Source of the DNA: a bacterium
GTDB lineage: Bacteria; Patescibacteriota; CPR2; UBA1875; JAJYID01
DNA: 64,000 nt
Reading direction: 5' to 3'
NCBI GenBank assembly: GCA_021790235.1
Contig: JAJYID010000002.1
Coordinates: forward strand, 26,125 to 90,124
Positions 9,551 to 25,487 of this stretch are shown here, piece by piece (the first letter of the stretch is position 1; every line of letters starts with the position of its first letter). Position numbers and translations under genes: made by a program. Under the pieces are notes generated by a model. It had not been told where the DNA came from. It did not search any database and saw only the letters and a list, made by a program, of their open reading frames with translations.

Positions 9551-10981
9551 ATGACAGTTCGCACCAGATTTGCACCATCACCTACAGGGAAACCACATAT
9601 CGGAAATATTCGGACAGCTATTTTCGAATACCTTTATGCCAAGTCCAAAAACGGCGAATTTATTTTGCGCATAGAGGATACGGATCGCGAAAGATTTATT
9701 CCGGAAACTATCAAGTACATAGAAGAAAGCCTAAAATGGCTAGGACTTACGTGGGATAATGAAAATATTGTACATCAATCAACACGTCTCGATATTTACA
9801 AAAAATATTCGGAAAAACTCCTCGAGGAGGGAAAGGCTTATAAATGTTTCTGTTCAAAAGAAAGGTTAGCTGAGCTTCGAGAAAAACAAACCAAGGAAGG
9901 AAAGGCACCGGGATATGACGCTTGCTGCCGAAAGTTAAACCCCGAGGATGTCGAAAAACTAGAAAAGGGAGGAAAAACTAGTGTCTTAAGATTTAAAATT
10001 CCGGAAACTCCCAAAAAAGTTATCTGGGAAGATCTGGTTTGGGAAACAGTTTCCATCCGCGCAGATACCCAGGAAGACTTTATAATCATGAAATCAGACG
10101 GTTATCCGACCTACAACTTCGCCAATGTTATTGATGATCACGATATGGGAATCAGCCATGTCATAAGGGGTGAGGAATTCATTCCCTCCACACCTAAACA
10201 TATCCTCTTATATCTGGCTTTCGGTTGGCAGCATCCAAGTTTCGCCCATTTACCTTTAATTATTGGTAAAGACAAGAAAAAACTTTCAAAAAGACACGGC
10301 GACACAGATATTTTGGATTATAGGGAAGAAGGTTATCTGGCAGAGTCAATGCTAAACTTTCTCGTTCTACTGGGCTGGAATCTAGGTACAACCCAGGAGC
10401 TTTTTAGCTGCAAAGAGCTGATTAAATATTTTGATATAAAAAGGGTAGGGAAAGCGCCGGCCGTGTTCGACCTTGACAGGTTAAATTGGATAAACGGCGA
10501 GAAAATCCGAGCCATGAAAGTCGATGATTTAATAAAAGAAGTAGCAAGTTTCAATTCCAACTTTATGAAGAATAAGGATAGAGACCTGCTTCAAAGAGCA
10601 CTAATCGTAATGCAAACAAGGATGGTAACACTAAAGGATTTTACAGATGGCTCAGGCTTTTTCTTTGAGGATATCAAATATGACCCCAGGCTTTTAATCT
10701 TCAAAAAAAGCACTCAAGATGATAGTTTGGGCGGTCTAAAAAATGTTTTGGAACTTTTAGGACAAACCAAAGAAATAAAGAGCCCCAAAGACGCAGACAA
10801 GATCATGAAAAAAGCGGTTGCTTCACAGAGTTTATCAAATGGCGATGTTTTCTGGCCAGTGAGAGTCGCGCTATCCGGCCAAGAAAAAAGTCCTTCACCG
10901 GGAGAAATCATGTGGGCGCTTGGTCTGGCAAAATCAAAAGAAAGATTAGAAACAGCTGTTAAACTACTGGAAAATCCATGA
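9551..10981 (+). CDS. gltX: glutamate--tRNA ligase
   Basis: Has RTRFAPSPTGKPHIGNIRTA (HIGH) and KLSKRHG (KMSKS). It ends in TGA, overlapping the next ATG (ATGA). Confidence 0.95.
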   Translation: MTVRTRFAPSPTGKPHIGNIRTAIFEYLYAKSKNGEFILRIEDTDRERFIPETIKYIEESLKWLGLTWDNENIVHQSTRLDIYKKYSEKLLEEGKAYKCFCSKERLAELREKQTKEGKAPGYDACCRKLNPEDVEKLEKGGKTSVLRFKIPETPKKVIWEDLVWETVSIRADTQEDFIIMKSDGYPTYNFANVIDDHDMGISHVIRGEEFIPSTPKHILLYLAFGWQHPSFAHLPLIIGKDKKKLSKRHGDTDILDYREEGYLAESMLNFLVLLGWNLGTTQELFSCKELIKYFDIKRVGKAPAVFDLDRLNWINGEKIRAMKVDDLIKEVASFNSNFMKNKDRDLLQRALIVMQTRMVTLKDFTDGSGFFFEDIKYDPRLLIFKKSTQDDSLGGLKNVLELLGQTKEIKSPKDADKIMKKAVASQSLSNGDVFWPVRVALSGQEKSPSPGEIMWALGLAKSKERLETAVKLLENP

Positions 10982-11589
10982 GTGAAGGGGAAAAATCTGA
11001 TAAAAAAATTTATACGTTTTTAGCACATGCCGTGACTTACGCCACAACTCCGGCCATCGTCGGCGGGTTTCTGCTTTTTTATACTCTCTATATTTTCAGC
11101 CCAAACGAAAAGCTTTTTTTAGAAACGTTCGGAGCTATTTGTTTTTTTTCAATCATCATGCCGGTGCTTTTTACATTTTATTTAATGAGAAAAGAGAAGG
11201 TAGGCAACTTTCACATGAAAGAAAGAGAAGAGAGAACCATACCCTTCGCCTTCGCTATGGCAGTATCCGCCATCTCACTCCTCGCCGTAAAACTCTTAGG
11301 TACAAACCATGAATTTTTTAGAATAGTCCTCACTTTCTACCTCATGGGACTTGGCTACGTCATCATAAATATTTTAAGGTTTAAACTCAGCGGCCATATC
11401 TTTGTTTTCACCGCTTCGCTTCTAATCCTGACATTCTTTGTCGATGTCCGCTTCGTCTTTTTAGCCCCGCTGATAATCCTGATTGGTTGGTCAAGAGGAC
11501 GATTAAAAGAGCATACATTTGGTGAGGTTGCAGGAAGCTTAGCCTACTCCCTAGTCTCCTTCATTATTTTTTCGTTTTTGTTTCAATAG
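10978..11589 (+). CDS. integral membrane protein, function unknown
   Basis: 203 aa with about six hydrophobic segments. Translationally coupled to gltX. Confidence 0.5.
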   Translation: MSEGEKSDKKIYTFLAHAVTYATTPAIVGGFLLFYTLYIFSPNEKLFLETFGAICFFSIIMPVLFTFYLMRKEKVGNFHMKEREERTIPFAFAMAVSAISLLAVKLLGTNHEFFRIVLTFYLMGLGYVIINILRFKLSGHIFVFTASLLILTFFVDVRFVFLAPLIILIGWSRGRLKEHTFGEVAGSLAYSLVSFIIFSFLFQ

Positions 11590-11602
11590 GTTGAGAATTA
11601 AA

Positions 11603-12439
11603 TTATTTAGGGTTAGACAAGGGTTCTTTAACATCAATTGAATTTTTACAATCCCTATAACCAAGTTTCATGTTATCTATTAAAGCTTTTTTGTTATTGT
11701 TGAGATTTCTAGCCTGCAATCTTCTACTGGGGGATAGAGTGATAATATTGATGCCTCGAGGCACAGTAAAGACTTTGACTTTCCTCTTTTGCTCCACATA
11801 GTTCTTTCTAAAAAGTTTATTTCTAAAGAAAAACCAAACGTGAAATATGGACCCTGCTAAATGATTATCGTTAATTGTGTCTATAACTAAAATATCAGTT
11901 GCTCCCATTTCAACAGCTTTCATAACATGGCTACCCACCTCAGCTGACAAAGAAGTATCACAGTATTTTTCTCCTTGAATCATTATTTTTTTATTAAAAA
12001 TAATAGGTACAGCTTTTGTCGCTCGCAATGCTTCAAAGATGTCATCATGATTATTATTCGAGAAATATTCTATCTTTCCTGTACGCAGATTTGTCGCTGA
12101 AATAAGATATTTAATATTTGAAGAAGAAACTTTCCCTACATCTAGGGAAGCCTGTTTTTTAAATACATTATCAATTAAGTAATCGACGTCCATGACCCTC
12201 CAGAAACGTATGGGGTTAATAAATTTTCTTGTAGATAAAAGATTTGTCCAGATCTTTGTAATAAGATCGTATTGTCCCGCCACAAAGTAAGCCATCGTGC
12301 CTGCGCCTCCGGATCCGGTAATAACAATGTCAGGTTTTGTTAGATGAAACTCCTTTACAAGGGCACTGGTTGCACCCGCCCCATAACTAGAGGACATTCC
12401 TCCACCAGATACTACTATTGCAAGTTTTTTCTTAATCAT
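11603..12439 (-). CDS. patatin-like phospholipase family protein (tentative)
   Basis: The N-terminal glycine-rich loop LAIVVSGGGMSSSYGAGA and ITGSGGAGTMAY sit where patatin GGGxxG and GxSxG motifs occur. The nucleophile motif is non-canonical. Confidence 0.55.
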   Translation of the reverse strand: MIKKKLAIVVSGGGMSSSYGAGATSALVKEFHLTKPDIVITGSGGAGTMAYFVAGQYDLITKIWTNLLSTRKFINPIRFWRVMDVDYLIDNVFKKQASLDVGKVSSSNIKYLISATNLRTGKIEYFSNNNHDDIFEALRATKAVPIIFNKKIMIQGEKYCDTSLSAEVGSHVMKAVEMGATDILVIDTINDNHLAGSIFHVWFFFRNKLFRKNYVEQKRKVKVFTVPRGINIITLSPSRRLQARNLNNNKKALIDNMKLGYRDCKNSIDVKEPLSNPK

Positions 12440-12528
12440 TAATATTTATTCTAGCACTAAAACGCCTTTGCATTTAATTGAAAAATAAGCTCTTAGATGA
12501 TAAGATATCATAGTTAATTTTAAATTGC

Positions 12529-12602
12529 TCGGGAGTAGCCAAGTGGTAAGGCAACGGGTTTTGGTCCCGTGATCGCAGGTTCGAGTCCTGCCTCCCGAAC
12601 CA
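12529..12602 (+). tRNA. tRNA-Gln(TTG), CCA encoded
   Basis: TCGGGAGTAGCCAAGTGGTAAGGCAACGGGTTTTGGTCCCGTGATCGCAGGTTCGAGTCCTGCCTCCCGAACCA. It has a U1-A72 acceptor, anticodon loop TTTTGGT and T-loop GTTCGAG. Confidence 0.9.
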
Positions 12603-12686
12603 AAACGAGCGCATGTAGCGCTCGACATGTCTATAGGTAAATACATTCCTCGAGAATATATTTAATGGGTCTTTTTAATTTAAGTC

Positions 12687-12715
12687 TTGAAGAAATAGAT
12701 AATTAGTGGTAAAAT
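12687..12715 (+). promoter_or_regulatory. sigma-70-like promoter upstream of the PqqD/rSAM cassette
   Basis: TTGAAG (12687-12692), a 17-nt spacer, then TAAAAT (12710-12715), about 65 nt upstream of the GTG start. Confidence 0.5.
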
Positions 12716-12780
12716 CCTGGTGGAAATTTAAAGAAGGGTACAAGGCCCTTTTTTGTTTAGAATCTTGAAAGGAGTGTACA

Positions 12781-13083
12781 GTGGAAGATCTATACCTTGC
12801 GAAAGGCATTAATGTGTCTTCGCGCATTATTAATAATGTTGCCTACATCTACCTCGAGGATAGGAACGACCTTATATCCTTGAACGAAACAGGCAGTGAA
12901 GTGTGGCGCCTAGTGAATGGCAAGAGAAGGACAAGCGACATAGTCGACCATATCATCAAGTGCTATGATGCAGAGCCATGCGAGGTAAGGGATATTATCT
13001 ATAGTTTTATCCTTGACCTAATAGGTAAGGGCGCCTTAAAAACGTCTTCTGTCCCGTTTGAAGGAGTGATGGCTTATGGATAA
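12781..13083 (+). CDS. PqqD-family peptide chaperone (RRE-type)
   Basis: 100 aa with a GTG start after GGAG. LNETGSEVWRLVNGKRRTSDIVDHIIKCYDAEPCEVRDIIYSFILDLIGKGAL is the typical PqqD pattern. It overlaps the next gene by 8 nt. Confidence 0.8.
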   Translation: MEDLYLAKGINVSSRIINNVAYIYLEDRNDLISLNETGSEVWRLVNGKRRTSDIVDHIIKCYDAEPCEVRDIIYSFILDLIGKGALKTSSVPFEGVMAYG

Positions 13084-14131
13084 CGTCCTGGAGGTTAGAG
13101 ATTTAACCAGAATGGCGATAAAAGAGGTAATCCCCATCTCTGTTTTGATTGAAGTCTGCCATACATGCAATGAGAACTGTATTCATTGTTATTTGGCAGA
13201 CCATACGAGGAGGGGCATGACAACTGGGCAGTATGAGATGCTCTTCGATCAGCTCGTTGATGCGGGCACCTTCTTCGTGATTTTGACTGGTGGTGAGCCA
13301 TTTATGCGACGCGACTTTATGGAGATCGTACGGATGGCGAGGCGCCGCCGCATCTCTGTAACAATCTTCACCAATGGAACCCTCATAACAGAGCAGCTAG
13401 CAAGAGAGCTCGCCAGTCTATGGGTCCAAGAGGTTCATATCAGTGTCTATGGAGCTGACGCCTCAATCCACGACGGTATCACAAGGGTTCCAGGATCATT
13501 TAAGAAAAGTATGACGGCAGTTGATCTCCTGAAAAAAAACGGCATAACAGTGAGATTCAAATCCCCGCTAATGAGCAGAACTGCAGACGGCATTTCTGAA
13601 CTGAAGGCGTTGGCTGAAAGCAAGGATGTGGATCTGCAGTTCACGGCCGTGATAACAGCGATGAACGATGGGAATATGGCAACTACGAATCTACGACTGA
13701 CTGATGCTCAGCTCAAGGACCTCCTACTGGACGAGAAAATTGATAGCCACACATCTCAAGCAATTGAACGCCCGTCAACATGCGACTGTGTACCCTGTGA
13801 CACCGTATATAATGGTGGGGCCATTGACCCGTTTGGAAATGTCTTTCCATGCAATCAACTTCAGGTGTGTGGAGGGAATGTTCTTGAGCAGTCATTTGGT
13901 GACATTTGGTCAAACTCTTTTGCCTTTCGCAATCTGCGAGAGATGAGAGTTGACGGACTGGATGATTGTGATGGATGCAGTCTATTTCTCCAGTGTACAC
14001 GATGTCCCGGGTTGGCCCTGCTAGAAGACGGGGACATACGAGGTTGCTCATCCGCTGCTAAGAGGATAGCCAAGATTAGAAGATCTCTTGGAACATATCC
14101 TTTGCAGAACCATATCTTCAGCAAGATCTGA
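13076..14131 (+). CDS. radical SAM/SPASM domain peptide-modifying enzyme
   Basis: Has CNENCIHC (CxxxCxxC), GGEPF, and a C-terminal SPASM region CDTVYNGGAIDPFGNVFPC ... CDGCSLFLQCTRC ... GC. Confidence 0.9.
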   Translation: MDNVLEVRDLTRMAIKEVIPISVLIEVCHTCNENCIHCYLADHTRRGMTTGQYEMLFDQLVDAGTFFVILTGGEPFMRRDFMEIVRMARRRRISVTIFTNGTLITEQLARELASLWVQEVHISVYGADASIHDGITRVPGSFKKSMTAVDLLKKNGITVRFKSPLMSRTADGISELKALAESKDVDLQFTAVITAMNDGNMATTNLRLTDAQLKDLLLDEKIDSHTSQAIERPSTCDCVPCDTVYNGGAIDPFGNVFPCNQLQVCGGNVLEQSFGDIWSNSFAFRNLREMRVDGLDDCDGCSLFLQCTRCPGLALLEDGDIRGCSSAAKRIAKIRRSLGTYPLQNHIFSKI

Positions 14132-14171
14132 CGAAAAGGGGATATGGAATCTAAGGAAGGGAGGTGATGAC

Positions 14172-14249
14172 GTGAAACCGACAAAGAAGCAATTCGAACC
14201 ACCCAAGATCAGTACACACTCTAAGGAAGTCCGCCGGCTCAATTCTTGA
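14172..14249 (+). CDS. candidate small peptide ORF (25 codons) downstream of the rSAM gene; possible RiPP precursor
   Basis: GGGAGG (14159-14164) lies 7 nt before GTG 14172. The peptide is (M)KPTKKQFEPPKISTHSKEVRRLNS, followed by TGA 14247-14249. The same frame continues TRAGCQGK to TAG 14274-14276. It lies inside the same terminator-bounded unit. Confidence 0.4.
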   Translation: MKPTKKQFEPPKISTHSKEVRRLNS

Positions 14250-14315
14250 ACGCGTGCGGGCTGCCAGGGCAAGTAGTGCCCCGAAGCTGCCAGGACATGT
14301 AATGTCCTGAAACGG

Positions 14316-14346
14316 AGGCCCCTCCGCGAGGAGGGGCCTTTCTTAT
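14316..14346 (+). terminator. rho-independent terminator closing the cassette
   Basis: AGGCCCCTCC-GCGA-GGAGGGGCCT gives a perfect 10-bp GC-rich stem, followed by TTCTTATAT. Confidence 0.85.
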
Positions 14347-14373
14347 ATATATAAAACAAAGTAATATATTATT

Positions 14374-14817
14374 ATGAACAAAAAATATTTATATAAACTC
14401 AATCAATTTGTTATTGATTATTATAATTCGAGATCTAGCAAACCCCTTTGGGTTGTGTCGGAATTTAGTTGTAGTGAAATGTCTAGGTATATTGGCTATC
14501 ATGTGCTGAATGATTTACGGTCAGCAAAGGCGTACATTTTGAAGGGCAACATTTCTAAATCTTTATCTCATGATATTTTGTTAATTGAAACAGAAGGAAA
14601 ATTTACACTAATAGATCCAACAATATGGCAATTTTTCAAGAATAAAAAAAGTATCTTTGTTGATGATTATTGTGACTTAGAATCAGCAGTTGTTGGGGCA
14701 AAAAAAGTTTATACAGGTGACTGGAGTATTTCGGAAGAACTAAATAAAGGTACACTCAAAAGAGAGGTACCGGAAATGCTAAATATAATTAACAAAAATA
14801 TCAAAAACAACGATTAG
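14374..14817 (+). CDS. hypothetical protein
   Basis: 147-aa ORF with very low GC (about 27 percent in a hand-counted 100-nt sample) and no recognised motif. Confidence 0.5.
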   Translation: MNKKYLYKLNQFVIDYYNSRSSKPLWVVSEFSCSEMSRYIGYHVLNDLRSAKAYILKGNISKSLSHDILLIETEGKFTLIDPTIWQFFKNKKSIFVDDYCDLESAVVGAKKVYTGDWSISEELNKGTLKREVPEMLNIINKNIKNND

Positions 14818-14877
14818 CAACTCTATCGTCAAATTTGACATGTAAAGATTCATATTAGAATAGTAAATAGTGCTATA

Positions 14878-14960
14878 GTGTTCTCGAGCGGAGTGCTGAA
14901 CCAATAAGAGCACCAAAGGTGAGCGTAATACCTATGCCGTTAAGAATTAGAGCCCAACTG
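14878..14960 (+). repeat. decayed direct copy of tRNA-Gln 3' end region (R1)
   Basis: GTGTTCTCGAGCGGAGTGCTGAACCAATAAGAGCACC...TAAGAATTAGAGCCCAACTG aligns with R2 (16697-16779), and more weakly with 12578-12645. Confidence 0.6.
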
Positions 14961-15008
14961 TATAGAGTTAACTAGGGTATATTCATACAATATCAGGCGG
15001 CTGTGGTG

Positions 15009-15593
15009 TTACTTCCAGCCAACTTTTTTTAGTAACTCCCTGGAGGGCGGACCAAAACGTTGATATGCGTACTCAGGAAAAAGTTTTGAAAAATTGTTTA
15101 TCAGAAAATAATCAACCAACCTTTCTTTATCCTCGTGTACAATGTTAAGTTTATTTATTATTGGAATTTCAATTATGCAGTGAACGAATTCATGGACCAG
15201 GGTGTTATGAGGATTGTGGACATTGTGAATATTCATGATAATTTTCTGGGGTGGGTTATATGACCCCCCAACCCCATATTGAGTAATTAGTATGTTAATT
15301 TCGGTGGGGATATCGCAGTTTAGCCCCTCTAGTCCTTTTAATACAGTGTCTTGATGCTCGTCCCACCAGATTTTGATATCATTAATAAACAGATCAACTG
15401 TGGCATGATTCATCTCTTTCGCTATTATCTTTGTTATCTTATTAACATCCGCCATGTCTCGAGTCGTTAAACCATTTGGAATCTTAGGAGCATATCCATG
15501 CTCCACATAAAAATCCCTTTTACCTAAAGTGTATATGACCCTGCGGGCTTCATTCTCAATATCATAAGTAAAATCTAATTTTACTTTGCTCAT
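15009..15593 (-). CDS. hypothetical HExxH-motif protein (orphan family member A)
   Basis: 194 aa. It has LVHEFVHCIIE, preceded by a W-containing helix and a G..G.Y.P segment, and is colinear with ORFs 16836..17540 and 62863..63546. Confidence 0.55.
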   Translation of the reverse strand: MSKVKLDFTYDIENEARRVIYTLGKRDFYVEHGYAPKIPNGLTTRDMADVNKITKIIAKEMNHATVDLFINDIKIWWDEHQDTVLKGLEGLNCDIPTEINILITQYGVGGSYNPPQKIIMNIHNVHNPHNTLVHEFVHCIIEIPIINKLNIVHEDKERLVDYFLINNFSKLFPEYAYQRFGPPSRELLKKVGWK

Positions 15594-15817
15594 AGTCCCT
15601 TCTATGTTTTATCTGTTCCTCACTAAACTATACATCATAGTGCCACATTCGCAAAGTTTGCTCATGTTAAGGTGGCGAAGGTTCTAAGACATTGTCAAAC
15701 CTCCACTATCTTTCGGTCATGAATCGCTAACTTTACGTTTAGATTTTTAACAAGTTGTATCTTTTCGGAGTCACTGCCTTTCTTGAGCATGTACTGTCTT
15801 TTCTTCAAAATATGATG

Positions 15818-16561
15818 CTAAATTAATGTGACTATTTCTAATGCAGCTTTGAATAGTTTCTCTGGATCTCGTTCATTTTCGTGCAAATTCTGCCCATCAA
15901 TATTATCATCAGTGATTAAAAAACTAGCAAAACTTATATTACGAAATTGTGCAACTGCAATCAATGACGCCAGCTCCATATCGACAGCTATACAACCATT
16001 ATTTTTCATAGTCTGCAACTTTCCGACTGTCTCTCTATATACAGCATCAGTTGTCCAGACTTTACCATTTAAAAAATGTACGTCATATTTAGAAAAAAAT
16101 TTATTCATTACAATTATTGAATTGGCATCTTGAGTGACTTCATCGCTTGGTGGTAAATAATGATAGCTCACGCCTTCTTCTCGGTAAGCTGAAGTAGGAA
16201 TAATGATTGTATTTTTAGATATTTTTTTATCCATTGCTCCACATGTGCCAAATGCGACAATTTTATTTATTCCACTAGCAATTAACAGCTCCATTTCTAC
16301 GGCAGACATGGCAGAACCACCAACTCCATCGGCTGATGATACTAGTAATATATTTTCTTTGCCAGCTTTATATATCATAAAATTATCAAATACTCCTTTT
16401 TCGTCGTTTTTAACAGGCGACACTTCAATATTGTCTTGTTTTTTTATATAGTCTTCCCACACCTCATCATCAAATATCATTAAGGCCTTTGTTGGATTAC
16501 CGAATAAATCAAGACTAGTGGGACTGAATAATGCGTTCTTATCAGGATCAAATTTAATCAT
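15818..16561 (-). CDS. nucleoside phosphorylase family protein (PNP/UDP-1-like)
   Basis: The segments VGGSAMSAVEMELLIASGINKIVAFGTCGA, REEGVSYHY and AVDMELASL match the uridine/purine nucleoside phosphorylase fold pattern. Confidence 0.7.
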   Translation of the reverse strand: MIKFDPDKNALFSPTSLDLFGNPTKALMIFDDEVWEDYIKKQDNIEVSPVKNDEKGVFDNFMIYKAGKENILLVSSADGVGGSAMSAVEMELLIASGINKIVAFGTCGAMDKKISKNTIIIPTSAYREEGVSYHYLPPSDEVTQDANSIIVMNKFFSKYDVHFLNGKVWTTDAVYRETVGKLQTMKNNGCIAVDMELASLIAVAQFRNISFASFLITDDNIDGQNLHENERDPEKLFKAALEIVTLI

Positions 16562-16696
16562 TTATTCACTTTCCTTTTGAAGTTAAGTTAATAGCTTTAA
16601 TAAAAAATATTATAACATCTTTTTGCAGTGTCCCAAATGTCAAAAATAGTCTATCACTGTACCAGATTGTGCCATTTTATGGTAATATTGCCCTAA

Positions 16697-16779
16697 GGTT
16701 CTAGGGCGGAAAGCTGAACCAATATGAGCGCCTATTGCGCTCGACGTGCCTAGTAGATTAATAAGATCAGAACCAACTG
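16697..16779 (+). repeat. direct copy of tRNA-Gln 3' end plus downstream hairpin (R2)
   Basis: GGTTCTAGGGCGGAAAGCTGAACCAATATGAGCGCCTATTGCGCTCGACGTGCCTAGTAG compared with 12578-: GGTTCGAGTCCTGCCTCCCGAACCAAAACGAGCGCATGTAGCGCTCGACATGTCTATAGG. Confidence 0.7.
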
Positions 16780-16835
16780 ATCGACCTACTATGATATGGT
16801 GAATTGATTCCTTCCCGCTTAGGGTAAAATTAAAA

Positions 16836-17540
16836 ATGAGTTATCCAAAAATAAAATTTGCAATTAACAAATCCTTAGATAAAAGGATGACTTATGAATT
16901 CCTGAAGGATGGGACCAAGGCTGGGCTTAACTTTGCTGAAGGTGTTCTTAAAATACACCCTGATCTTAAAATAGCTCAGCGACTTCAAGGCAAAGAAAAA
17001 ATATCTGCAATAAATAAATATGTCGATAAATACTATGATGAAAACAGCAATTCATTGCTTCTGGCGAAAAGCACATTTCAAAAAGAGTGGGATGTTTATG
17101 AGAAAAATTTTTTTCAAGCAGCCGAGGGGGTATTTGGTAGAATCTCTTGGCCCAAAGGACAGTATAAGGGTTTCATTTCTATAATACCCTCGGGTCCTAG
17201 ATTTATAGGTACTAAAACGTGGCAGACACCCTATCTGACTCCTCAATATTTTAAGGCTCAGGTAATACATGAGGTTCTGCATTTCCAGTTTTTTAACTTA
17301 GTCAATAAACTAAAAATTTCGGATCAGCTGACCGAAGATCAACTTTGGCATTTATCTGAAATCTTTAATGATATTGTCCAGAGAGAACCTGAATTCGAAA
17401 AAATCCAAGGCTACAAAAAAAATATTGGATATCCCGACCACATTTCTATTCATAAAAAATACTTATCTATCTGGCAAAGATCAAAAAATGCCAAGTTATT
17501 CATCCTTAATGCAATGAAAGAGATAAGAAAAGATTTTTAA
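16836..17540 (+). CDS. hypothetical HExxH-motif protein (orphan family member B)
   Basis: 234 aa with VIHEVLHFQFFN. The upstream F.KEW...FF......FG segment is colinear with member D. Confidence 0.55.
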   Translation: MSYPKIKFAINKSLDKRMTYEFLKDGTKAGLNFAEGVLKIHPDLKIAQRLQGKEKISAINKYVDKYYDENSNSLLLAKSTFQKEWDVYEKNFFQAAEGVFGRISWPKGQYKGFISIIPSGPRFIGTKTWQTPYLTPQYFKAQVIHEVLHFQFFNLVNKLKISDQLTEDQLWHLSEIFNDIVQREPEFEKIQGYKKNIGYPDHISIHKKYLSIWQRSKNAKLFILNAMKEIRKDF

Positions 17541-17611
17541 GATATTCCGTTCACATAAATTTCATCCAGTTACAAACTTCATGATTAACTAATTAGGGCA
17601 AAACGACCTCG

Positions 17612-18985
17612 ATGATGCAAAAATCAAATTATCATTTTATCGGAATAGGGGGGATTGGGATGAGCGCGCTGGCTCAAATACTTTTGGAACGAGGATACAA
17701 GGTTAGCGGTTCGGACTTGGTCGAAAACCCTATTACTAAAAATCTGCAGAACATGGGAGCTCGGATTTACTTCGGCCACAACGAAAAAAATATTTCTAAA
17801 GATACAGATTTAGTGATTGTAAGCGCGGCGATTACAGAAAAAAATCCGGAAATAAAAGCCGCAAAAAAACTAGGAATTCCTATCATTACCCGCGGCGAAC
17901 TGCTAGGGAAACTCATGGATGAAAAAGTAGGAATTGCCGTCACAGGCACACATGGTAAAACTACCACTTCAAGCCTGCTGGCAGAAATATTTGAACATGC
18001 AAAACTCGACCCGACTATTGCCATTGGCGGAGAAGTGGGAAATATCGGCGGAAACGCTAAAAGCGGGAAAGGGAAGTACTTTATCGCCGAAACTTGCGAG
18101 TACAAAAGATTTTTTGCTGATATCAGCCCGCACATCGCTATTATTACAAATATCGAGGAAGACCATCTCGACTATTATAAAGACTTGGATGATATCAAGA
18201 GAGCTTTTTCGGATTTTACAAAAAATATAAAAAAAGACGGTTTTCTTCTGGCCTGTTTTGATGATGATAATACGCGAGAAATCGCCGAAGATTTTGATGG
18301 AAAGGTGATTTCCTACGGCATCTCTAAAGAAGGCTTAAATTATCAATCTTGCAATATTAAGGTTGAAGACCATCTGCAAAAGTTCAGTGTCTCAAAAAAC
18401 GGATCGGATCTGGGAGAATTCGAACTAAGAGTACCAGGCATCCACAGTATTTTAAATGCCACAGCGGCCATCGCAGTATCTCTGGAATGCGGCATCAAAC
18501 TTGGGATCATTAAAGAAAGTATTGCAAACTTTAACGGTGCGGTTCGAAGGATGCAAGTCAAAGGAGAGTTTGAAGGAATAACGGTAATCGATGACTATGC
18601 TCATCATCCGACAGAAATAAATGCCACTTTGCAAGCACTCAAAAGTTTTTATCCGAAAAGAAAAATATGGTGTATTTTCCAGCCGCATCAGCACTCAAGA
18701 ACCAGAATGCTCCTGGATAGCTTTGTCAGCTCTCTACACCTGGCAGATGAAATTATTATCCCGAAAATCTATCCGATCCGTGATACGCCGGAAGATATCG
18801 CAAGCGTTTCAGGGGACAACGTAGTGAAACTTCTAAAGATGCAAGGCAAGTCCGCAAAATATATTCCTGACTTTAAAGATACGGTCAAGGAACTCAGAGC
18901 CAATGCTAAAGAAGGTGATATTATCCTTACAATGGGTGCTGGTCCTGTCAATAAAATCGGGGAAATGTATTTGAATATCAAGTAA
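17612..18985 (+). CDS. murC: UDP-N-acetylmuramate--L-alanine ligase
   Basis: Has HFIGIGGIGMSALAQILLERGYKVSGSD and GTHGKTTTSSL (P-loop). 457 aa. Confidence 0.95.
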   Translation: MMQKSNYHFIGIGGIGMSALAQILLERGYKVSGSDLVENPITKNLQNMGARIYFGHNEKNISKDTDLVIVSAAITEKNPEIKAAKKLGIPIITRGELLGKLMDEKVGIAVTGTHGKTTTSSLLAEIFEHAKLDPTIAIGGEVGNIGGNAKSGKGKYFIAETCEYKRFFADISPHIAIITNIEEDHLDYYKDLDDIKRAFSDFTKNIKKDGFLLACFDDDNTREIAEDFDGKVISYGISKEGLNYQSCNIKVEDHLQKFSVSKNGSDLGEFELRVPGIHSILNATAAIAVSLECGIKLGIIKESIANFNGAVRRMQVKGEFEGITVIDDYAHHPTEINATLQALKSFYPKRKIWCIFQPHQHSRTRMLLDSFVSSLHLADEIIIPKIYPIRDTPEDIASVSGDNVVKLLKMQGKSAKYIPDFKDTVKELRANAKEGDIILTMGAGPVNKIGEMYLNIK

Positions 18986-22253: not shown

Positions 22254-22380
22254 GCTTAATTTTTTGAGAACTTTAAGAGCCTGCTCAGGGTTTCATATTG
22301 AGTTAGAATATATGGAGCTGTGAACAGGCTCTTAGTTCAGGTATTTTTAAATAGTTTTATTTTTATGTTAAAATACACAT

Positions 22381-23715
22381 ATGAAAAATACAGAAACCAA
22401 AGAATCTTCAACAGAAGATGATAGAGTTAATGAAGTTGATACTGGTAAACAAAAAATTGATGGAACTTTCGAGAATATTATAGCTAAAATAGACGCTAAC
22501 CCCTATATGCAGAAAGAAGATAGTGAAACCCCTCCCCCAATTCAACCAAGTACGATTTTCGATGCCAGAAAAGAACTGAGAGATATTTTAAAAGCATCAG
22601 GTAAAGAAAGGCGAGTACTTCTCAAAGTCTTCAAGGAGAGGCTTGCATATCAGAAAAAAGGCATTGCAAAGATACAGGATAACCTAGTGGATATTGCATA
22701 CAAAAACCCTGATCTTCCAGATGGTTTTCTGATAGAAAAGGCTGAGGAAATGATGGATAAGTATGGCTTCACCGAAGAACAGAGAAGGTATGTGGGTATA
22801 GTGACTAGAAACTTTGAGATAATCAGAGGTTATATCAGCGAAATCAAGGAAGAGTGCCCAGATCCTAAAAGTTTATTTGAACAAATCTTCCACCAAATAC
22901 CTAAAAAAGATATAAGATTGGTAAAAAGTCCTGTATCATTCTACTTTCAACTTAGCACTATTGATTTTTTACAGATTTTTGAGGGTAAAACGGATTTCAA
23001 AACATTACCGGTGGCAGTAACCTCTCAAACTACTTTAGTTACTATGCGCAGAGGTAAAATAAAAGAGATTAATTTGCCATTCATATTAGAAAGAATGGAT
23101 CACCAATATAAAGATAGAGCAAAATTAGCTGGAAAAGACATTAATTGTCATTATGGGGTAATTACTGATAAATCTAACACTAAACTACATGAAGAACAAC
23201 ATGTCATATACAAATTACTGCAAATTGATAAGCTTATAGATCACACTTACTATAAGAACAAGCCAAATTTATTAAAAAATGGCAATACCGAAGTAGATTT
23301 AACAAAAATCAATGACAAAAAATATTTTGAAACCCTTCTTGCGCAAGAAAGACAAAAAGTAGAAGAAAAGGTGAAAAACGAGCTTCTAGCATTCATAAAA
23401 GGAGGCAGTACAACTTTCTTTTATGAACACATACTTATGCAAAATCCATCAGGGTGCTTATATAACTTCGCGTCAGCAAAGCTTACAAATGCCATTATGC
23501 ATTTGCATGAAGGGGAGTTCTCAGAAGCCATGGATAAAAGAATGAACTCTTTTAGAGAGATAAATCACAATATCCGAGAGGCAAGGGTGGCTTTCCAAAA
23601 TCTTTGCCGGGAAGGATATTCTGAGAAACAAGCTATTACTATCCTAACCACCGAGCCGCTCTCAAAGTGGCCAAAGGCCGTAAAAAGATTAAAGGAAGCA
23701 AAACAAACCCTTTGA
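22381..23715 (+). CDS. hypothetical protein (444 aa) with HEEQH motif
   Basis: Long uninterrupted ORF. The only recognisable element is KLHEEQHVIYKLL (HExxH). Confidence 0.5.
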   Translation: MKNTETKESSTEDDRVNEVDTGKQKIDGTFENIIAKIDANPYMQKEDSETPPPIQPSTIFDARKELRDILKASGKERRVLLKVFKERLAYQKKGIAKIQDNLVDIAYKNPDLPDGFLIEKAEEMMDKYGFTEEQRRYVGIVTRNFEIIRGYISEIKEECPDPKSLFEQIFHQIPKKDIRLVKSPVSFYFQLSTIDFLQIFEGKTDFKTLPVAVTSQTTLVTMRRGKIKEINLPFILERMDHQYKDRAKLAGKDINCHYGVITDKSNTKLHEEQHVIYKLLQIDKLIDHTYYKNKPNLLKNGNTEVDLTKINDKKYFETLLAQERQKVEEKVKNELLAFIKGGSTTFFYEHILMQNPSGCLYNFASAKLTNAIMHLHEGEFSEAMDKRMNSFREINHNIREARVAFQNLCREGYSEKQAITILTTEPLSKWPKAVKRLKEAKQTL

Positions 23716-23982
23716 GACATTAAGAACATTCAAAGTTCTTGGGCCGATTCCCAACAGTTCAATCTTTTTATACTAAATATTCAAAACCTTGCCGAGTTTT
23801 TTCAATATTAAACCAACTGTAAAGTAGATCAACTAGTGACTACATTAAAATTCATTATTAATTGAGACCGCGGTGTTTGCGGTGAAAGAATATACAAAAC
23901 TTAAAGCAAATAATATTTGAGGACTTTTTGGGCTCTCATTTTTAAGATAAACAATCCGACATTTCGCCGGGTTGTTTATTTG

Positions 23983-24011
23983 TTGAAGAAAAAGCTAAAT
24001 TTTGCTATAAT
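23983..24011 (+). promoter_or_regulatory. sigma-70-like promoter for tRNA-Glu
   Basis: TTGAAG (23983-23988), a 17-nt spacer, then TATAAT (24006-24011), 10 nt before the tRNA. Confidence 0.6.
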
Positions 24012-24021
24012 TTTCTAGTCT

Positions 24022-24098
24022 GCCGCGTTCGTCTAGTGGCCTAGGATACCTGGTTCTCATCCAGGAGACCACGGGTTCGAATCCCGTACGCGGTACCA
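24022..24098 (+). tRNA. tRNA-Glu(CTC), CCA encoded
   Basis: GCCGCGTTCGTCTAGTGGCCTAGGATACCTGGTTCTCATCCAGGAGACCACGGGTTCGAATCCCGTACGCGGTACCA. The anticodon loop is TTCTCAT. Confidence 0.9.
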
Positions 24099-24101
24099 TA
24101 T

Positions 24102-24128
24102 AAAAATTCCATACGGAATTTTTTTGTT
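24102..24128 (+). terminator. rho-independent terminator after tRNA-Glu
   Basis: AAAAATTCC-ATAC-GGAATTTTT followed by a T run. Confidence 0.75.
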
Positions 24129-24197
24129 TTTCTTAACACCATAATATTTATGCTTTAAATTATTGCTATAAAAACAAAAATAAAGGATGAATAAAAA

Positions 24198-24305
24198 ATG
24201 GTAGATTCAATCTTTAGAGACGAAAATAACCAAGACCAGCAAGTAAATCCGGACCAAATGCCGACAAGTCAAGTTCCTCAGCCTGCAAAAAACATAAGTT
24301 TCTGA
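24198..24305 (+). CDS. possible 35-aa upstream ORF coupled to the next gene
   Basis: MVDSIFRDENNQDQQVNPDQMPTSQVPQPAKNISF. Its TGA overlaps the next ATG (TGATG). It could equally be the detached N-terminus of the downstream membrane protein. Confidence 0.3.
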   Translation: MVDSIFRDENNQDQQVNPDQMPTSQVPQPAKNISF

Positions 24306-24862
24306 TGCCGCTTTTGACAATCTTGGCGGTTATTTTAGTAGCCGGTGGAGTTGGATTTGGTGTCTGGTATTGGCAAAATGGAGAACTAAACAAACAGAGG
24401 TCCAACAATGACACCCGAATTGCTGCGCTACAAAAACAGATTGGCACAAAACCCTCAACAAGTGCACCAAAAGAGCAAACAAATCCTTCAAATGACATTT
24501 GGCTGAAAAAGGTTAAAGAACTAAAGGTTAGAAATATTGCACTAGCAAATAACAATCAAATTGATGTTTTGCAAGACCCATCCAATAGCAATATCTTTTA
24601 CTATACTGAATGGGGAGCCACCGTAGACCAGGGCAAACAAGGACCAAATGCAATTTATAGATTCGATGTATCTAAGGCTAAAAACTTCGCAGAAGACGAT
24701 TATGCATCTTTTTCATTAGCTCAAGGAGATCTCATTTACCAAAGAGATGCAGTTGGGCTTAAACAAAAAAATTCATTATTGAAACTAGTTGGTTTTGATG
24801 GAAGAAAACTTGTTTTCTTTGAAATGAATGCCGGTCGGTTTCACATTGGATGCCCTATTTGA
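24305..24862 (+). CDS. hypothetical membrane-anchored protein
   Basis: N-terminal TM LLTILAVILVAGGVGFGVWYW followed by a soluble domain with no known motif. Confidence 0.5.
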   Translation: MPLLTILAVILVAGGVGFGVWYWQNGELNKQRSNNDTRIAALQKQIGTKPSTSAPKEQTNPSNDIWLKKVKELKVRNIALANNNQIDVLQDPSNSNIFYYTEWGATVDQGKQGPNAIYRFDVSKAKNFAEDDYASFSLAQGDLIYQRDAVGLKQKNSLLKLVGFDGRKLVFFEMNAGRFHIGCPI

Positions 24863-25487
24863 ATACGACTTAACGATTGAAGCAGAAGAAATAATCCCCG
24901 TTGTTCACTTTCTCCTTGGAACAGAAGGAACTAAGAAACCAGATATTAAATACCTTTACGCCCACACTCAGGCATATTCGCAATGCGAAAAATACATCAG
25001 AAAGAATCTGCCAAATGCAGAGGTCCTAGAGACAACCTCAAATGGGGAGTCGGCAAGGCTCGCATCTGCCAAGGGACGGACCCTTGGCAAGCAAGGATAC
25101 GCCGCAATAGCCCCGGAAATTGCTGCAGAAATTTATAATTTAGAAATTTTGCAAAAATCGATTCAGGACAGTAAAGATAATGTCACAAAATTCATTGTAA
25201 TTTCAAAGCACGAGACAAAATTCTCCGGATACGACCGAACCTCGATCACTGTTTATCCACAAACAGATAAGCCCGGACTTTTGTATGAAATTCTTGGTTA
25301 TTTCAAAAGCGAAAACCTAAACTTGTCTAAAGTTGAGTCGCGCCCAAGCAAAGGAAAACTCGGAGATTACATTTTCTACATCGACTTCAATGGCCACACA
25401 AGCGAAAAACCTGCGCAAAATGCTATAAGCGCGCTCGAAAAAGTTGCTTTTGTCAAAACCCTCGGCAGCTACAAGCGGAAATATTAA
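24828..25487 (+). CDS. pheA: prephenate dehydratase, N-terminally truncated (PDT C-terminal part plus ACT domain)
   Basis: TLDALFEYDLTIEAEEIIPVVHFLLG, AHTQAYSQCEKYI and DSKDNVTKFIVIS are followed by an ACT-like TSITVYP...PGLLYEILGYF. About 65 N-terminal residues of a normal PDT domain are missing, and a stop lies immediately upstream in frame. Confidence 0.7.
   Translation: MPVGFTLDALFEYDLTIEAEEIIPVVHFLLGTEGTKKPDIKYLYAHTQAYSQCEKYIRKNLPNAEVLETTSNGESARLASAKGRTLGKQGYAAIAPEIAAEIYNLEILQKSIQDSKDNVTKFIVISKHETKFSGYDRTSITVYPQTDKPGLLYEILGYFKSENLNLSKVESRPSKGKLGDYIFYIDFNGHTSEKPAQNAISALEKVAFVKTLGSYKRKY

What the first reader, a model, noticed from the sequence alone, without database searches (positions are those of the whole stretch)
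12529..16779. Composite island at tRNA-Gln bounded by decayed direct copies of the tRNA 3' end plus its hairpin
The T-arm and acceptor end of tRNA-Gln, together with the GAGCGC-n5-GCGCTC hairpin after it (12578-12645), recur twice downstream as direct repeats. R2 lies at 16697-16779 and matches in roughly two of three positions, including GAACCAA, GAGCGC...GCGCTCGAC and CTA.TAG. R1 lies at 14878-14960 and is more decayed, but it aligns with R2 over about 83 nt, including the tail TAAGAATTAGAGCCCAACTG / TAAGATCAGAACCAACTG.

This is the footprint expected from two successive integrations into the 3' end of a tRNA gene. Segment 1 (12603-14877) carries the PqqD/rSAM cassette plus a very AT-rich 147-aa ORF. 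Segment 2 (14961-16696) carries an HExxH orphan and a nucleoside-phosphorylase-like gene on the opposite strand. No integrase or excisionase remains, so the island appears fixed or decayed.
Basis: partly seen in the sequence, partly recalled or inferred. Interest (0 to 1): 0.6.

Follow-up and report, generated by a model that had tools for sequence, protein, structure and literature searches.

The report
Integrase-less gene cassettes at tRNA-Gln
Just after a glutamine tRNA gene, this uncultivated bacterium has gained at least two blocks of foreign genes, each ending in a short repeat that marks similar insertions in related genomes, yet no enzyme for moving them is encoded in any of them.

Summary
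The repeats are real. The tRNA 3' flank vs R2 and R1 vs R2 both beat all 1000 shuffles; the tRNA flank vs R1 does not on its own. The repeat is not a decayed T-arm. It has three parts: a conserved ~40-nt arm ('P-arm', TAGTGCTATAAT-GTTCTCGAGCGGAGTGCT), a 6-nt core equal to the last six tRNA bases (GAACCA), and a ~55-nt copy of the hairpin trailer that follows the tRNA.

Relatives keep gltX-203aa...murC synteny, but the interval between differs in every genome. One relative (L136) is the predicted empty site: tRNA-Gln runs straight into the R2 trailer and the 234-aa gene, at 88.7% identity against 68-76% for core genes. So 4.1 kb (12603-16715) is inserted in the window.

The same arm ends cassettes in at least four other organisms; a fifth copy (L134) has no left boundary. 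One holds the same PNP gene alone; another holds a retron. Sequence modules switch exactly at the core, and the core co-varies with the tRNA end. No recombinase lies in any bounded segment.

Best reading: a tandem array of cassettes inserted by site-specific recombination, with the recombinase supplied in trans (CIME- or integron-like). This is a new variant of a known kind and of moderate interest.

The parts
10978..11589 (+). 203-aa membrane-protein gene after gltX; the conserved left anchor of the variable interval
   Evidence: It follows gltX in L088, L090, L092, L093, L135 and L136.
11603..12439 (-). Patatin-like phospholipase gene on the 5' side of the tRNA; variable, and not part of the 3'-end array
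   Evidence: Pfam Patatin, E 8e-11. It is absent from all the syntenic relatives.
12529..12602 (+). tRNA-Gln(TTG), the attachment-site gene; its last six bases, GAACCA (12597-12602), are the shared core
   Evidence: ARAGORN; Rfam tRNA 67.5 bits; 98.8% identical to the L088 tRNA.
12603..12656 (+). Trailer copy 1, with the hairpin CGAGCGC-n5-GCGCTCG at 12606-12624
   Evidence: nhmmer trailer profile 12597-12656, E 6e-12. The hairpin appears in the fold and in the terminator scan.
12781..14131 (+). PqqD-family chaperone (12781-13083) and radical SAM/SPASM maturase (13076-14131); G+C 0.48 against 0.38 for the window
   Evidence: Pfam PqqD, Radical_SAM and SPASM; NCBIfam; G+C. The unit is 69% identical over 1.9 kb to L137.
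14172..14276 (+). Candidate precursor peptide: 25 codons, then TGA at 14247-14249, then 8 more in-frame conserved codons and TAG
   Evidence: Homologous peptide and conserved post-TGA codons in L137; hairpins downstream of the UGA.
14314..14341 (+). Strong intrinsic-terminator-like hairpin
   Evidence: 12 pairs, 8 of them G-C, followed by a T run.
14374..14817 (+). 147-aa ORF of unknown function; a conserved partner of the PqqD/rSAM unit rather than a separate module
   Evidence: Homologous 150-aa ORF at the same position in L137 (tblastx 57% over 158 aa). No Pfam, NCBIfam or PADLOC hit.
14863..14959 (+). R1: P-arm (14863-14897), core GAACCA (14898-14903) and an L093-type trailer (14904-14959)
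   Evidence: nhmmer P-arm E 2e-12 and trailer E 5e-9. The arm matches L130 and L134 at 31-32 of 35 nt. The trailer's GAGCACCAAAGGTGAGCG is 18/18 with the L093 tRNA trailer.
15009..15593 (-). 194-aa HExxH protein of unknown family
   Evidence: No family hit. It is 36% identical (E 7e-35) to the ORF just 5' of tRNA-Gln(CTG) in L130.
15699..15773 (.). Conserved 75-nt spacer element, or a 31-aa minus-strand ORF
   Evidence: 81% identical to L134 465-539; alignment score 80 against shuffles 19+-2.5.
15818..16561 (-). 247-aa nucleoside-phosphorylase-superfamily gene; a self-standing cassette elsewhere
   Evidence: Pfam PNP_UDP_1, E 7e-29. It is 83.4% nucleotide-identical to L130 7697-8504, where it is the only gene between tRNA-Gln(CTG) and R.
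16680..16778 (+). R2: P-arm (16680-16715), core GAACCA (16716-16721) and the native-type trailer (16722-16778, hairpin 16726-16742)
   Evidence: nhmmer P-arm E 1e-10 and trailer E 4e-16. The trailer and downstream DNA are collinear with the L136 tRNA trailer.
16836..17540 (+). 234-aa gene of unknown function; with the R2 trailer it forms a module (16717-17607) shared with L136
   Evidence: 88.7% identity over 893 nt against 68-76% for core genes. It is absent upstream of murC in L004, L005, L088, L090, L092, L093 and L135.
17612..18985 (+). murC, the conserved right anchor of the variable interval
   Evidence: Synteny.

Best explanation
The 6-kb interval between the 203-aa gene and murC is a hypervariable locus anchored on tRNA-Gln.

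**Proposed structure.** In the window, 4.1 kb (12603-16715) was inserted between the last base of the tRNA and its native trailer. It consists of at least two cassettes placed in succession.
- Cassette 1: PqqD, rSAM/SPASM, peptide and the 147-aa ORF.
- Cassette 2: the HExxH and PNP genes.

**Proposed mechanism (inferred).**
- Each cassette carries a ~40-nt P-arm at its distal end and a trailer at its proximal end.
- In a circular form these would meet as P-arm-GAACCA-trailer, an attP-like site.
- Recombination with the identical 6-7-nt core at the tRNA 3' end inserts the cassette, restores the tRNA and pushes older cassettes outward.
- On this model R1 is the junction between the two cassettes. 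R2 joins the older cassette to the native trailer.

**The recombinase.** No R-bounded segment encodes one. I infer that the enzyme is supplied in trans, by the host or by an autonomous relative, as for CIMEs, integron cassettes or Xer-dependent elements.

**Shown:** the insertion, the repeat family, the exact breakpoint and the lack of a recombinase in cis.
**Inferred:** the circular intermediate, the type of recombinase and present-day activity.
For: 1. **Repeats beat chance.** Two of the three pairwise alignments exceed all 1000 shuffles.
2. **Empty site.** L136 has tRNA-Gln, then the trailer, then the 234-aa gene. This is collinear with window 16717-17607 at 88.7%.
3. **Variable interval.** Its content differs in the window, L088, L090, L092, L093, L135 and L136 while the flanks stay syntenic.
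4. **Recurrence of the arm.**
   - P-arm copies end segments that start at a tRNA-Gln in L088, L093, L127 and L130, always in the tRNA's orientation. L134's left boundary lies off the contig.
   - A 20-base pattern gave 8 metagenome hits. Four were true R copies from three loci (L132 duplicates L130), and two of those loci have a tRNA-Gln upstream.
5. **Modules switch exactly at the core.**
   - L130_R vs the L136 tRNA flank: 11/35 to the left, 35/35 to the right.
   - L130_R vs L134_R: 34/35 to the left, 9/35 to the right.
   - R1 carries an L130-type arm but an L093-type trailer.
6. **Core co-variation.** L093's tRNA ends in CAGCCA and so does its R copy. All the others have GAACCA in both.
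7. **The same cassette at a different tRNA-Gln gene.** The PNP gene is 83% identical in L130, next to the CTG isoacceptor with unrelated flanks.
8. **The arm is better conserved than core genes.** It is 89-95% identical to L130 and L134, against 66-71% for core genes shared with L134.
9. **No recombinase in cis.** The segments encode PqqD, rSAM, the 147-aa ORF, HExxH and PNP (window); a 168-aa ORF (L088); a surface protein plus an ABC transporter (L093); a retron RT (L127); and PNP (L130). tblastn with XerD, the lambda Int C-terminal part, IntI1 and gamma-delta resolvase found nothing in the window or in the loci fetched up to then (L004-L134).
10. **Composition.** Cassette 1 has G+C 0.48 against 0.38 for the window.
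Against: - No recombinase has been identified anywhere, so the in-trans step is pure inference.
- No circular or autonomous element carrying the arm was found in viral contigs, phage records or plasmid records.
- Only seven R copies from six genomes are known.
- Cassette 2 holds two genes with no R between them, although PNP alone is a cassette in L130.
- The PqqD/rSAM unit in L137 lies next to neither a tRNA-Gln nor an R.
- The 234-aa module has no P-arm at its right end.
- The arm looks like a -35/-10 promoter and might be conserved for that reason.
- R2's arm is more diverged (24/35), so some copies may be inactive.
Confidence: 0.58

Rival explanations
1. These are ordinary integrase-bearing islands or prophage remnants. 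Each once carried its own tyrosine integrase at tRNA-Gln and later lost it by deletion. On this reading R1 and R2 are inert scars and the island is fixed.
For: - tRNA 3'-end integration with tandem accretion and later decay is the commonest known route to such islands, for example tycheposon islands with partial tRNAs and fragmented integrases.
- Other repeats of the classic kind exist at this tRNA. L135 has a 22-nt repeat of the tRNA 3' end around a 150-nt remnant, and L127 has a 17-nt repeat.
- R2's arm is partly diverged.
Against: - None of the R-bounded segments in five genomes keeps an integrase or a recognisable fragment of one.
- The arm is 89-95% identical between genomes whose core genes are 66-71% identical. 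That does not fit neutral scars.
- The cassettes are very small (0.6-1 kb in L088 and L130), with clean ends.
Confidence: 0.2
2. The cassettes spread by homologous recombination. DNA taken up from relatives is exchanged using the conserved tRNA-Gln, its trailer and the arm as short homology blocks. No dedicated site-specific recombinase acts today.
For: - The conserved blocks (the 74-nt tRNA, the ~55-nt trailer and the ~40-nt arm) flank every cassette.
- The trailer plus 234-aa module is 88.7% identical between genomes whose core genes are 68-76% identical. This is the pattern expected for allelic replacement.
- Two related species (the window organism and the L088 type) occur in one sample, SRR13170411.
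Against: - Homologous exchange does not explain a breakpoint fixed to the same 6 nt in all comparisons.
- It does not explain why the R core changes to CAGCCA where the tRNA end does.
- It cannot create the first duplication of core plus trailer.
- The homology blocks are short.
Confidence: 0.14
3. R is a functional small-RNA gene or a promoter module, or a relic of tandemly duplicated tRNA-Gln genes. Its position next to variable genes is incidental.
For: - The arm contains a TTGTGC-n18-TATAAT motif in L130, with close variants in L134 (TTATGC) and L093 (TATAAC). A 10/12 promoter match lies at R1 (14835-14864).
- The trailer has a hairpin that is kept, with one compensatory change, in the R1/L093 variant.
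- The arm shows weak similarity to the T-loop region (7-10 of 19 nt).
Against: - There is no Rfam family and no tRNA-like fold.
- R1 folds no better than shuffles (z -0.76).
- The genes downstream of R are as often antisense as sense.
- Three copies lack the trailer altogether and break off exactly after the core.
- L136 shows the R-free ancestral arrangement.
Confidence: 0.06

Closest known systems
tRNA-gene-targeting integrative islands built by tandem accretion, e.g. tycheposon islands of Prochlorococcus (bioRxiv 10.1101/2020.12.28.424599)
   Same: - Insertion occurs at the 3' end of a tRNA gene and restores the tRNA.
- Later arrivals push older elements outward.
- Repeats of the attachment site separate the blocks.
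- The cargo is variable and niche- or defence-related, and an empty site exists in relatives.
   Different: - Those elements carry their own tyrosine recombinase, and the islands keep integrase fragments. Here none of the bounded segments has one.
- The duplicated tRNA part is only 6-7 nt; most of the repeat is non-tRNA sequence (arm plus trailer).
CIMEs, cis-mobilizable elements of Streptococcus ICE families (ICEberg 2.0, PMC6323972)
   Same: The elements are bounded by attL and attR sites, lack integration and transfer genes, and sit in tandem at one attachment site.
   Different: - CIMEs are defined relative to a known ICE that supplies the integrase and shares the att sites. No such parent element has been found here.
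- The host lineage is a candidate phylum with small genomes.
- The cassettes are much smaller (0.6-6.4 kb).
Integron gene-cassette arrays, and arrays lacking a nearby integrase (CALINs); from my own knowledge of Cury et al. 2016
   Same: - Small recombinase-less cassettes each end in a conserved recombination site.
- They are stacked at one platform, the newest next to it.
- The recombinase acts in trans.
   Different: - There is no intI, no attI, and no attC architecture with a GTTRRRY core.
- The platform is a tRNA gene.
- Cassettes may hold several genes on either strand, with their own promoters and terminators.
IMEX elements that use host XerCD at dif; from my own knowledge
   Same: Integrative elements without their own recombinase that use a host enzyme and can stack in tandem.
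   Different: - The target here is the tRNA-Gln 3' end, not dif.
- No Xer homologue was found in the 64-kb window.
- No dif-like 28-bp site is involved.

Membership tests
tRNA-targeting integrative genomic island (tyrosine-integrase type) | Inserted at the 3' end of a tRNA gene that remains intact | tested here: met
   The intact tRNA-Gln at 12529-12602 is immediately followed by the inserted DNA.
tRNA-targeting integrative genomic island (tyrosine-integrase type) | Direct repeats (attL/attR) that contain the 3' part of the tRNA | tested here: inconclusive
   The direct repeats are significant. However, only the last 6-7 nt of the tRNA are repeated, and the T-arm part matches at 9-10 of 19 nt.
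tRNA-targeting integrative genomic island (tyrosine-integrase type) | Empty site in related genomes | tested here: met
   In L136 the tRNA-Gln is joined to the trailer and the 234-aa gene.
tRNA-targeting integrative genomic island (tyrosine-integrase type) | Integrase gene next to one att site | tested here: not met
   There is no recombinase domain in any island protein. tblastn with XerD, lambda Int, IntI1 and a resolvase found nothing in the window. The same holds for L088, L093, L127 and L130.
CIME (cis-mobilizable element) | Bounded by att sites and devoid of integration and transfer genes | tested here: met
   
CIME (cis-mobilizable element) | A related autonomous element with the same att sites exists and supplies the integrase | tested here: inconclusive
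   None was found in viral contigs, phage records, plasmid records or the one metagenome scan. The lineage is very thinly sampled.
CIME (cis-mobilizable element) | Demonstrated excision or mobilisation | not testable with these tools
   This needs read-level or experimental data.
Integron cassette array / CALIN | attC sites: imperfect palindromes with an RYYYAAC...GTTRRRY core | tested here: not met
   R reads GTTCTCG...GAACCA. Neither box fits the consensus, and R1 does not fold better than shuffles.
Integron cassette array / CALIN | Mostly promoterless single-ORF cassettes in one orientation | tested here: not met
   The cassettes include multi-gene and minus-strand units with their own promoter- and terminator-like sites.
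Integron cassette array / CALIN | IntI integrase with an attI platform | tested here: not met
   There is no IntI1-like sequence in the window or in loci L004-L134. The rest of the genome could not be examined.
Tycheposon | Family-specific integrase and replication modules | tested here: not met
   No integrase, helicase or primase genes lie in any bounded segment.
IMEX (Xer-dependent element) | Integration at the chromosomal dif site | tested here: not met
   The site is the tRNA-Gln 3' end.

The most novel reading that the evidence does not exclude
Candidate-division WS5 relatives and neighbouring uncultivated lineages may possess a dedicated cassette-capture platform anchored on tRNA-Gln genes, a functional analogue of the integron.
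- A chromosomally encoded recombinase, not linked to the cassettes, would recognise the ~40-nt arm. The arm has three RTGCT repeats about 20 nt apart.
- It would recombine the arm with the last 6 nt of tRNA-Gln.
- This would stack, shuffle and exchange small cassettes between species. The cassettes seen carry a RiPP maturase unit, a nucleoside phosphorylase, a retron and a surface protein with a transporter.
- The arm's outward promoter could express whatever lies downstream.
Probability: 0.25. Interest if true: 0.75.

Novelty: new variant of a known kind. Interest (0 to 1): 0.5.

Why it matters
How genes move between the small, streamlined genomes of uncultivated candidate phyla is poorly understood. 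These genomes are reported to hold many genomic islands, but I found no mechanism described for them: PMC12455944 never mentions tRNA, integrase or integron.

This locus offers a concrete, testable route.
- It has a defined 6-nt crossover point and a conserved recognition arm.
- An empty site and the same cassette at two different tRNA-Gln genes are in hand.
- If a trans-acting recombinase exists, the arm is the handle for finding it, by co-occurrence across genomes.
- The system would then be a second, independent invention of an integron-like cassette platform.

If instead the arm is only a scar, the locus is an ordinary tRNA-linked island.

Tried and rejected
- **Decayed T-arm copies.** Rejected. 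The significant alignment starts at GAACCA, and the 5' part is a separate conserved arm.
- **R as a tRNA-like or known RNA.** The Rfam E-value scan of 12000-17500 gave only the tRNA and a sub-threshold BjrC68 match. R1 folds no better than shuffles.
- **Further decayed R or trailer copies**, for example between the HExxH and PNP genes. nhmmer found none. The spacer shows no trace of a tRNA when aligned to the L130, window or L136 tRNA regions.
- **The two HExxH-containing proteins (194 aa and 234 aa) as paralogues.** BLASTP found no similarity.
- **murC as an anchor.** It gave only two short close contigs (L004, L005), with a different upstream gene. The patatin gene as an anchor gave only distant, non-syntenic relatives. 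gltX was the productive anchor.
- **Autonomous parent element.** Four DNA-pattern or blastn searches of viral contigs, phages and plasmids found nothing. The 33 and 39 viral pattern hits are chance matches without the rest of the arm.
- **Coding look-alikes.** Four of the eight metagenome pattern hits (L128, L129, L131, L133) are an unrelated G+C-rich coding family.
- **Recombinase search.** There were no hits in the window or in the loci fetched up to then (L004-L134). This is a weak negative.
- **Defence-system annotation of the cargo.** PADLOC hit only the L127 retron RT, plus a generic viperin-like radical-SAM match.

Full report
**1. Checking the observation**

ARAGORN places tRNA-Gln(TTG) at 12529-12602, and Rfam agrees. 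I aligned 12560-12670, 14860-14980 and 16680-16800 pairwise, with 1000 dinucleotide shuffles as controls.
- tRNA 3' end plus hairpin vs R2: score 44, shuffles 14.6+-2.2, none reach it.
- R1 vs R2: score 43, shuffles 15.6+-2.4, none reach it.
- tRNA 3' end vs R1: score 18, reached by 99 of 1000 shuffles, so not significant alone.

The motif GAACCAANANGAGCNC occurs exactly three times in the window.

The significant tRNA-R2 alignment begins only at GAACCA, the last six bases of the tRNA. By contrast, R1 and R2 resemble each other for another 40 nt upstream. Over the 19 nt before the core, R1 and R2 match the tRNA at 9 and 10 positions. This is a weak echo, mainly the GTTC of the T-loop.

**2. 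The organism and its relatives**

- The window is identical to an ENA contig (L002).
- murC gave only two close but short contigs, and the patatin gene gave only distant relatives.
- GltX homologues at 64-79% identity identified the lineage. One is named candidate division WS5.
- Six relatives keep the order NYN-gltX-203aa ... murC-316aa-CAP-Pyr_redox.

The interval between the 203-aa gene and murC differs in every genome:

| Genome | Size of interval | Content |
|---|---|---|
| window | 6.0 kb | patatin(-), tRNA-Gln, PqqD, rSAM, peptide, 147-aa ORF, R1, HExxH(-), PNP(-), R2, 234-aa gene |
| L088 | 1.2 kb | tRNA-Gln, 168-aa ORF, R copy, 160-aa ORF |
| L090 | 1.4 kb | inverted tRNA-Gln, PGDYG protein, 153-aa(-) ORF |
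| L092 | 1.0 kb | 166-aa(-) ORF, inverted tRNA-Gln, 96-aa ORF |
| L093 | 7.9 kb | 115-aa(-) ORF, tRNA-Gln, 1415-aa surface protein, ABC transporter, R copy, 150-aa(-) ORF |
| L135 | 0.6 kb | tRNA-Gln, a 150-nt remnant bounded by a 22-nt repeat of the tRNA end, 96-aa ORF |
| L136 | murC not in range | tRNA-Gln, trailer, 234-aa gene, ABC-F gene |

**3. The empty site**

In L136 the tRNA-Gln runs straight into a trailer and the 234-aa gene. L136 12236-13126 aligns with window 16717-17607 at 88.7% over 893 nt, while the core genes of the two genomes are 68-76% identical.

In the window, 12603-16715 (4.1 kb) lies between the tRNA's last base and what is elsewhere its immediate trailer.

The unusually high identity of the trailer plus 234-aa module suggests that it too has been exchanged recently.

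**4. What the repeat is**

A metagenome scan for TTCTNGNGCGGANNGCTGAACCAA (20 specified bases) gave eight hits.
- Four belong to an unrelated G+C-rich coding family.
- Four are true copies from three loci: L127, L130 (L132 is a duplicate) and L134.

Together with L088 and a diverged copy in L093, there are seven copies in six genomes. The unit has three parts.
- **P-arm.** About 40 nt, consensus AAATAGTGCTATAATGTTCTCGAGCGGAGTGCT. It carries three RTGCT repeats about 20 nt apart and looks like a -35/-10 promoter.
- **Core.** Six nt, identical to the tRNA's last six bases.
- **Trailer.** About 55 nt with a hairpin (GAGCGC-n5-GCGCTC, or the variant GAGCACCAAAGGTGAGCG). It is optional, and it also follows tRNA-Gln itself in the window, L130, L093 and L136.

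**5. The breakpoint lies at the core**

Ungapped identities over 35 nt to the left and 35 nt to the right of the core:

| Pair | Left | Right |
|---|---|---|
| L130_R vs L136 tRNA flank | 11 | 35 |
| L130_R vs L134_R | 34 | 9 |
| R1 vs L130_R | 32 | 18 |
| R2 vs L136 tRNA flank | 13 | 26 |

- R1 combines an L130-type arm with the L093-type trailer, which is 18/18 over GAGCACCAAAGGTGAGCG.
- The copies in L088, L127 and L134 break off into unrelated sequence right after the core.
- In L093 the tRNA ends in CAGCCA, and its R copy also has CAGCCA. Every other tRNA-R pair has GAACCA.

Two independently assorting modules joined at one fixed 6-nt site that co-varies with the target are the signature of site-specific recombination.

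**6. The cassettes**

- **PNP.** L130 has tRNA-Gln(CTG), a trailer, a single minus-strand PNP gene and then R. The PNP segment is 83.4% identical to window 15818-16624, while the flanks (BipA, cytochrome b5 protein, MFS transporter) are unrelated to the window locus.
- **Retron.** L127 has a retron-type reverse transcriptase between tRNA-Gln and R (PADLOC RT_III-A, 4e-34).
- **Transporter.** L093's 6.4-kb segment holds a surface protein and an ABC transporter.
- **RiPP unit.** The window's PqqD, rSAM/SPASM, small peptide and 147-aa ORF form one conserved unit. It is found 69% identical in L137, but there it is next to neither a tRNA-Gln nor an R.
- **Composition.** This unit has G+C 0.48 against 0.38 for the window.

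No bounded segment encodes a recombinase. This is a weak negative.

**7. Mechanism**

The most economical reading is successive site-specific insertion at the tRNA-Gln 3' end.
- Each element has an attP-like site of the form arm-core-trailer.
- The newest element lies next to the tRNA.
- R1 is then an element-element junction, and R2 joins an element to the native trailer.

Every cassette lacks a recombinase, and the arm is better conserved (89-95%) than core genes (66-71%). I therefore favour mobilisation in trans, as for CIMEs or integron cassettes, over simple decay of integrase-bearing islands such as those described for tycheposons.

The insertion, the repeat family and the breakpoint are shown. 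The circular intermediate, the enzyme and present-day activity are inferred.

The rivals are decayed classical islands, exchange by homologous recombination through the conserved blocks, and a promoter or small-RNA role for R. They are weighed in their own sections.

**8. Comparison with known systems, and novelty**

- The locus behaves like a tRNA-linked island built by accretion, but it fails the integrase criterion.
- It meets the structural definition of CIMEs, but no parent element is known.
- It resembles an integron array in logic, but not in site architecture or platform.
- I found no description of this arm. The paper library returned only general accounts of genomic islands in Patescibacteria.

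I rate it a new variant of a known kind, of moderate interest. The interest would rise sharply if a dedicated trans-acting recombinase were found.

**9. Limits**

- The lineage is thinly sampled, with seven copies in six genomes.
- The caps on genome, metagenome and contig look-ups were reached.
- The rest of the source genome could not be read.
- No read-level data were available.

Noticed in passing
window 14172-14276 (+); L137 4009-4113: The small ORF after the rSAM gene reads (V)KPTKKQFEPPKISTHSKEVRRLNS-TGA-TRAGCQGK-TAG.
- The homologous cassette in L137 reads MPVLKKTFVPPTIETHTKEVRRLNS-TGA-SRAGCQGK-TAA.
- The eight codons after the TGA differ only by synonymous or conservative changes, and nucleotide conservation stops at the second stop codon.
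- Both sequences have a hairpin 9-16 nt after the UGA.

This could be a read-through or selenocysteine-containing precursor peptide for the PqqD plus rSAM/SPASM pair. The host otherwise uses TGA as a stop codon. Only two sequences could be compared.
   Followed up: partly
window 15699-15773; L134 465-539: A 75-nt stretch in the spacer between the HExxH and PNP genes is 81% identical to a stretch in L134's array (alignment score 80 against shuffles 19+-2.5). It may be a 31-aa minus-strand ORF (MLETGSDSEKTQLVKNLNIKLAIHDRKIVEV in L134) or a small RNA.
   Followed up: partly
L127 2265-2345; L134 1365-1435: Two different cassettes share a ~70-nt G+C-rich hairpin element just before their R copies (aaacccgca..ttggagacccgca...cgagggcgggttttctcttt). 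One cassette holds a retron-type RT and the other a 192-aa zinc-ribbon protein. The element could be a retron non-coding RNA or a conserved cassette end.
   Followed up: no
window 22336-25483 (tRNA-Glu at 24022-24098): tRNA-Glu(CTC) is inverted relative to L088, L090 and L092. Its surroundings span 3.1 kb in the window against 0.9 kb in L088. This is a second tRNA-linked variable spot in the same window.
   Followed up: no
window 11603-12439 (-): The patatin-like phospholipase gene lies between the 203-aa gene and the tRNA-Gln promoter only in this genome. Its closest homologues are 50-56% identical. In L084 a patatin gene directly follows a tRNA-Gln(CTG).
   Followed up: partly
window 15009-15593 (-); L130 6918-7487 (-): The HExxH protein is 36% identical over its full length (E 7e-35) to the ORF immediately 5' of tRNA-Gln(CTG) in L130. 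HExxH gene, tRNA-Gln and PNP are therefore neighbours there too, but with the tRNA in between.
   Followed up: partly
L135 11940-12135; L127 645-785: Other repeats at the same tRNA are of the classic kind. L135 has a 22-nt copy of the tRNA T-loop and acceptor end 150 nt downstream. L127 has a 17-nt copy 113 nt downstream. These show that a second class of element also targets tRNA-Gln.
   Followed up: no
L001 (= window 10637-12558): A Logan contig of the same strain from SRR13170411 stops in the middle of the tRNA-Gln gene. This may reflect low coverage or strain heterogeneity at the site. The L088-type relative occurs in the same sample.
   Followed up: no
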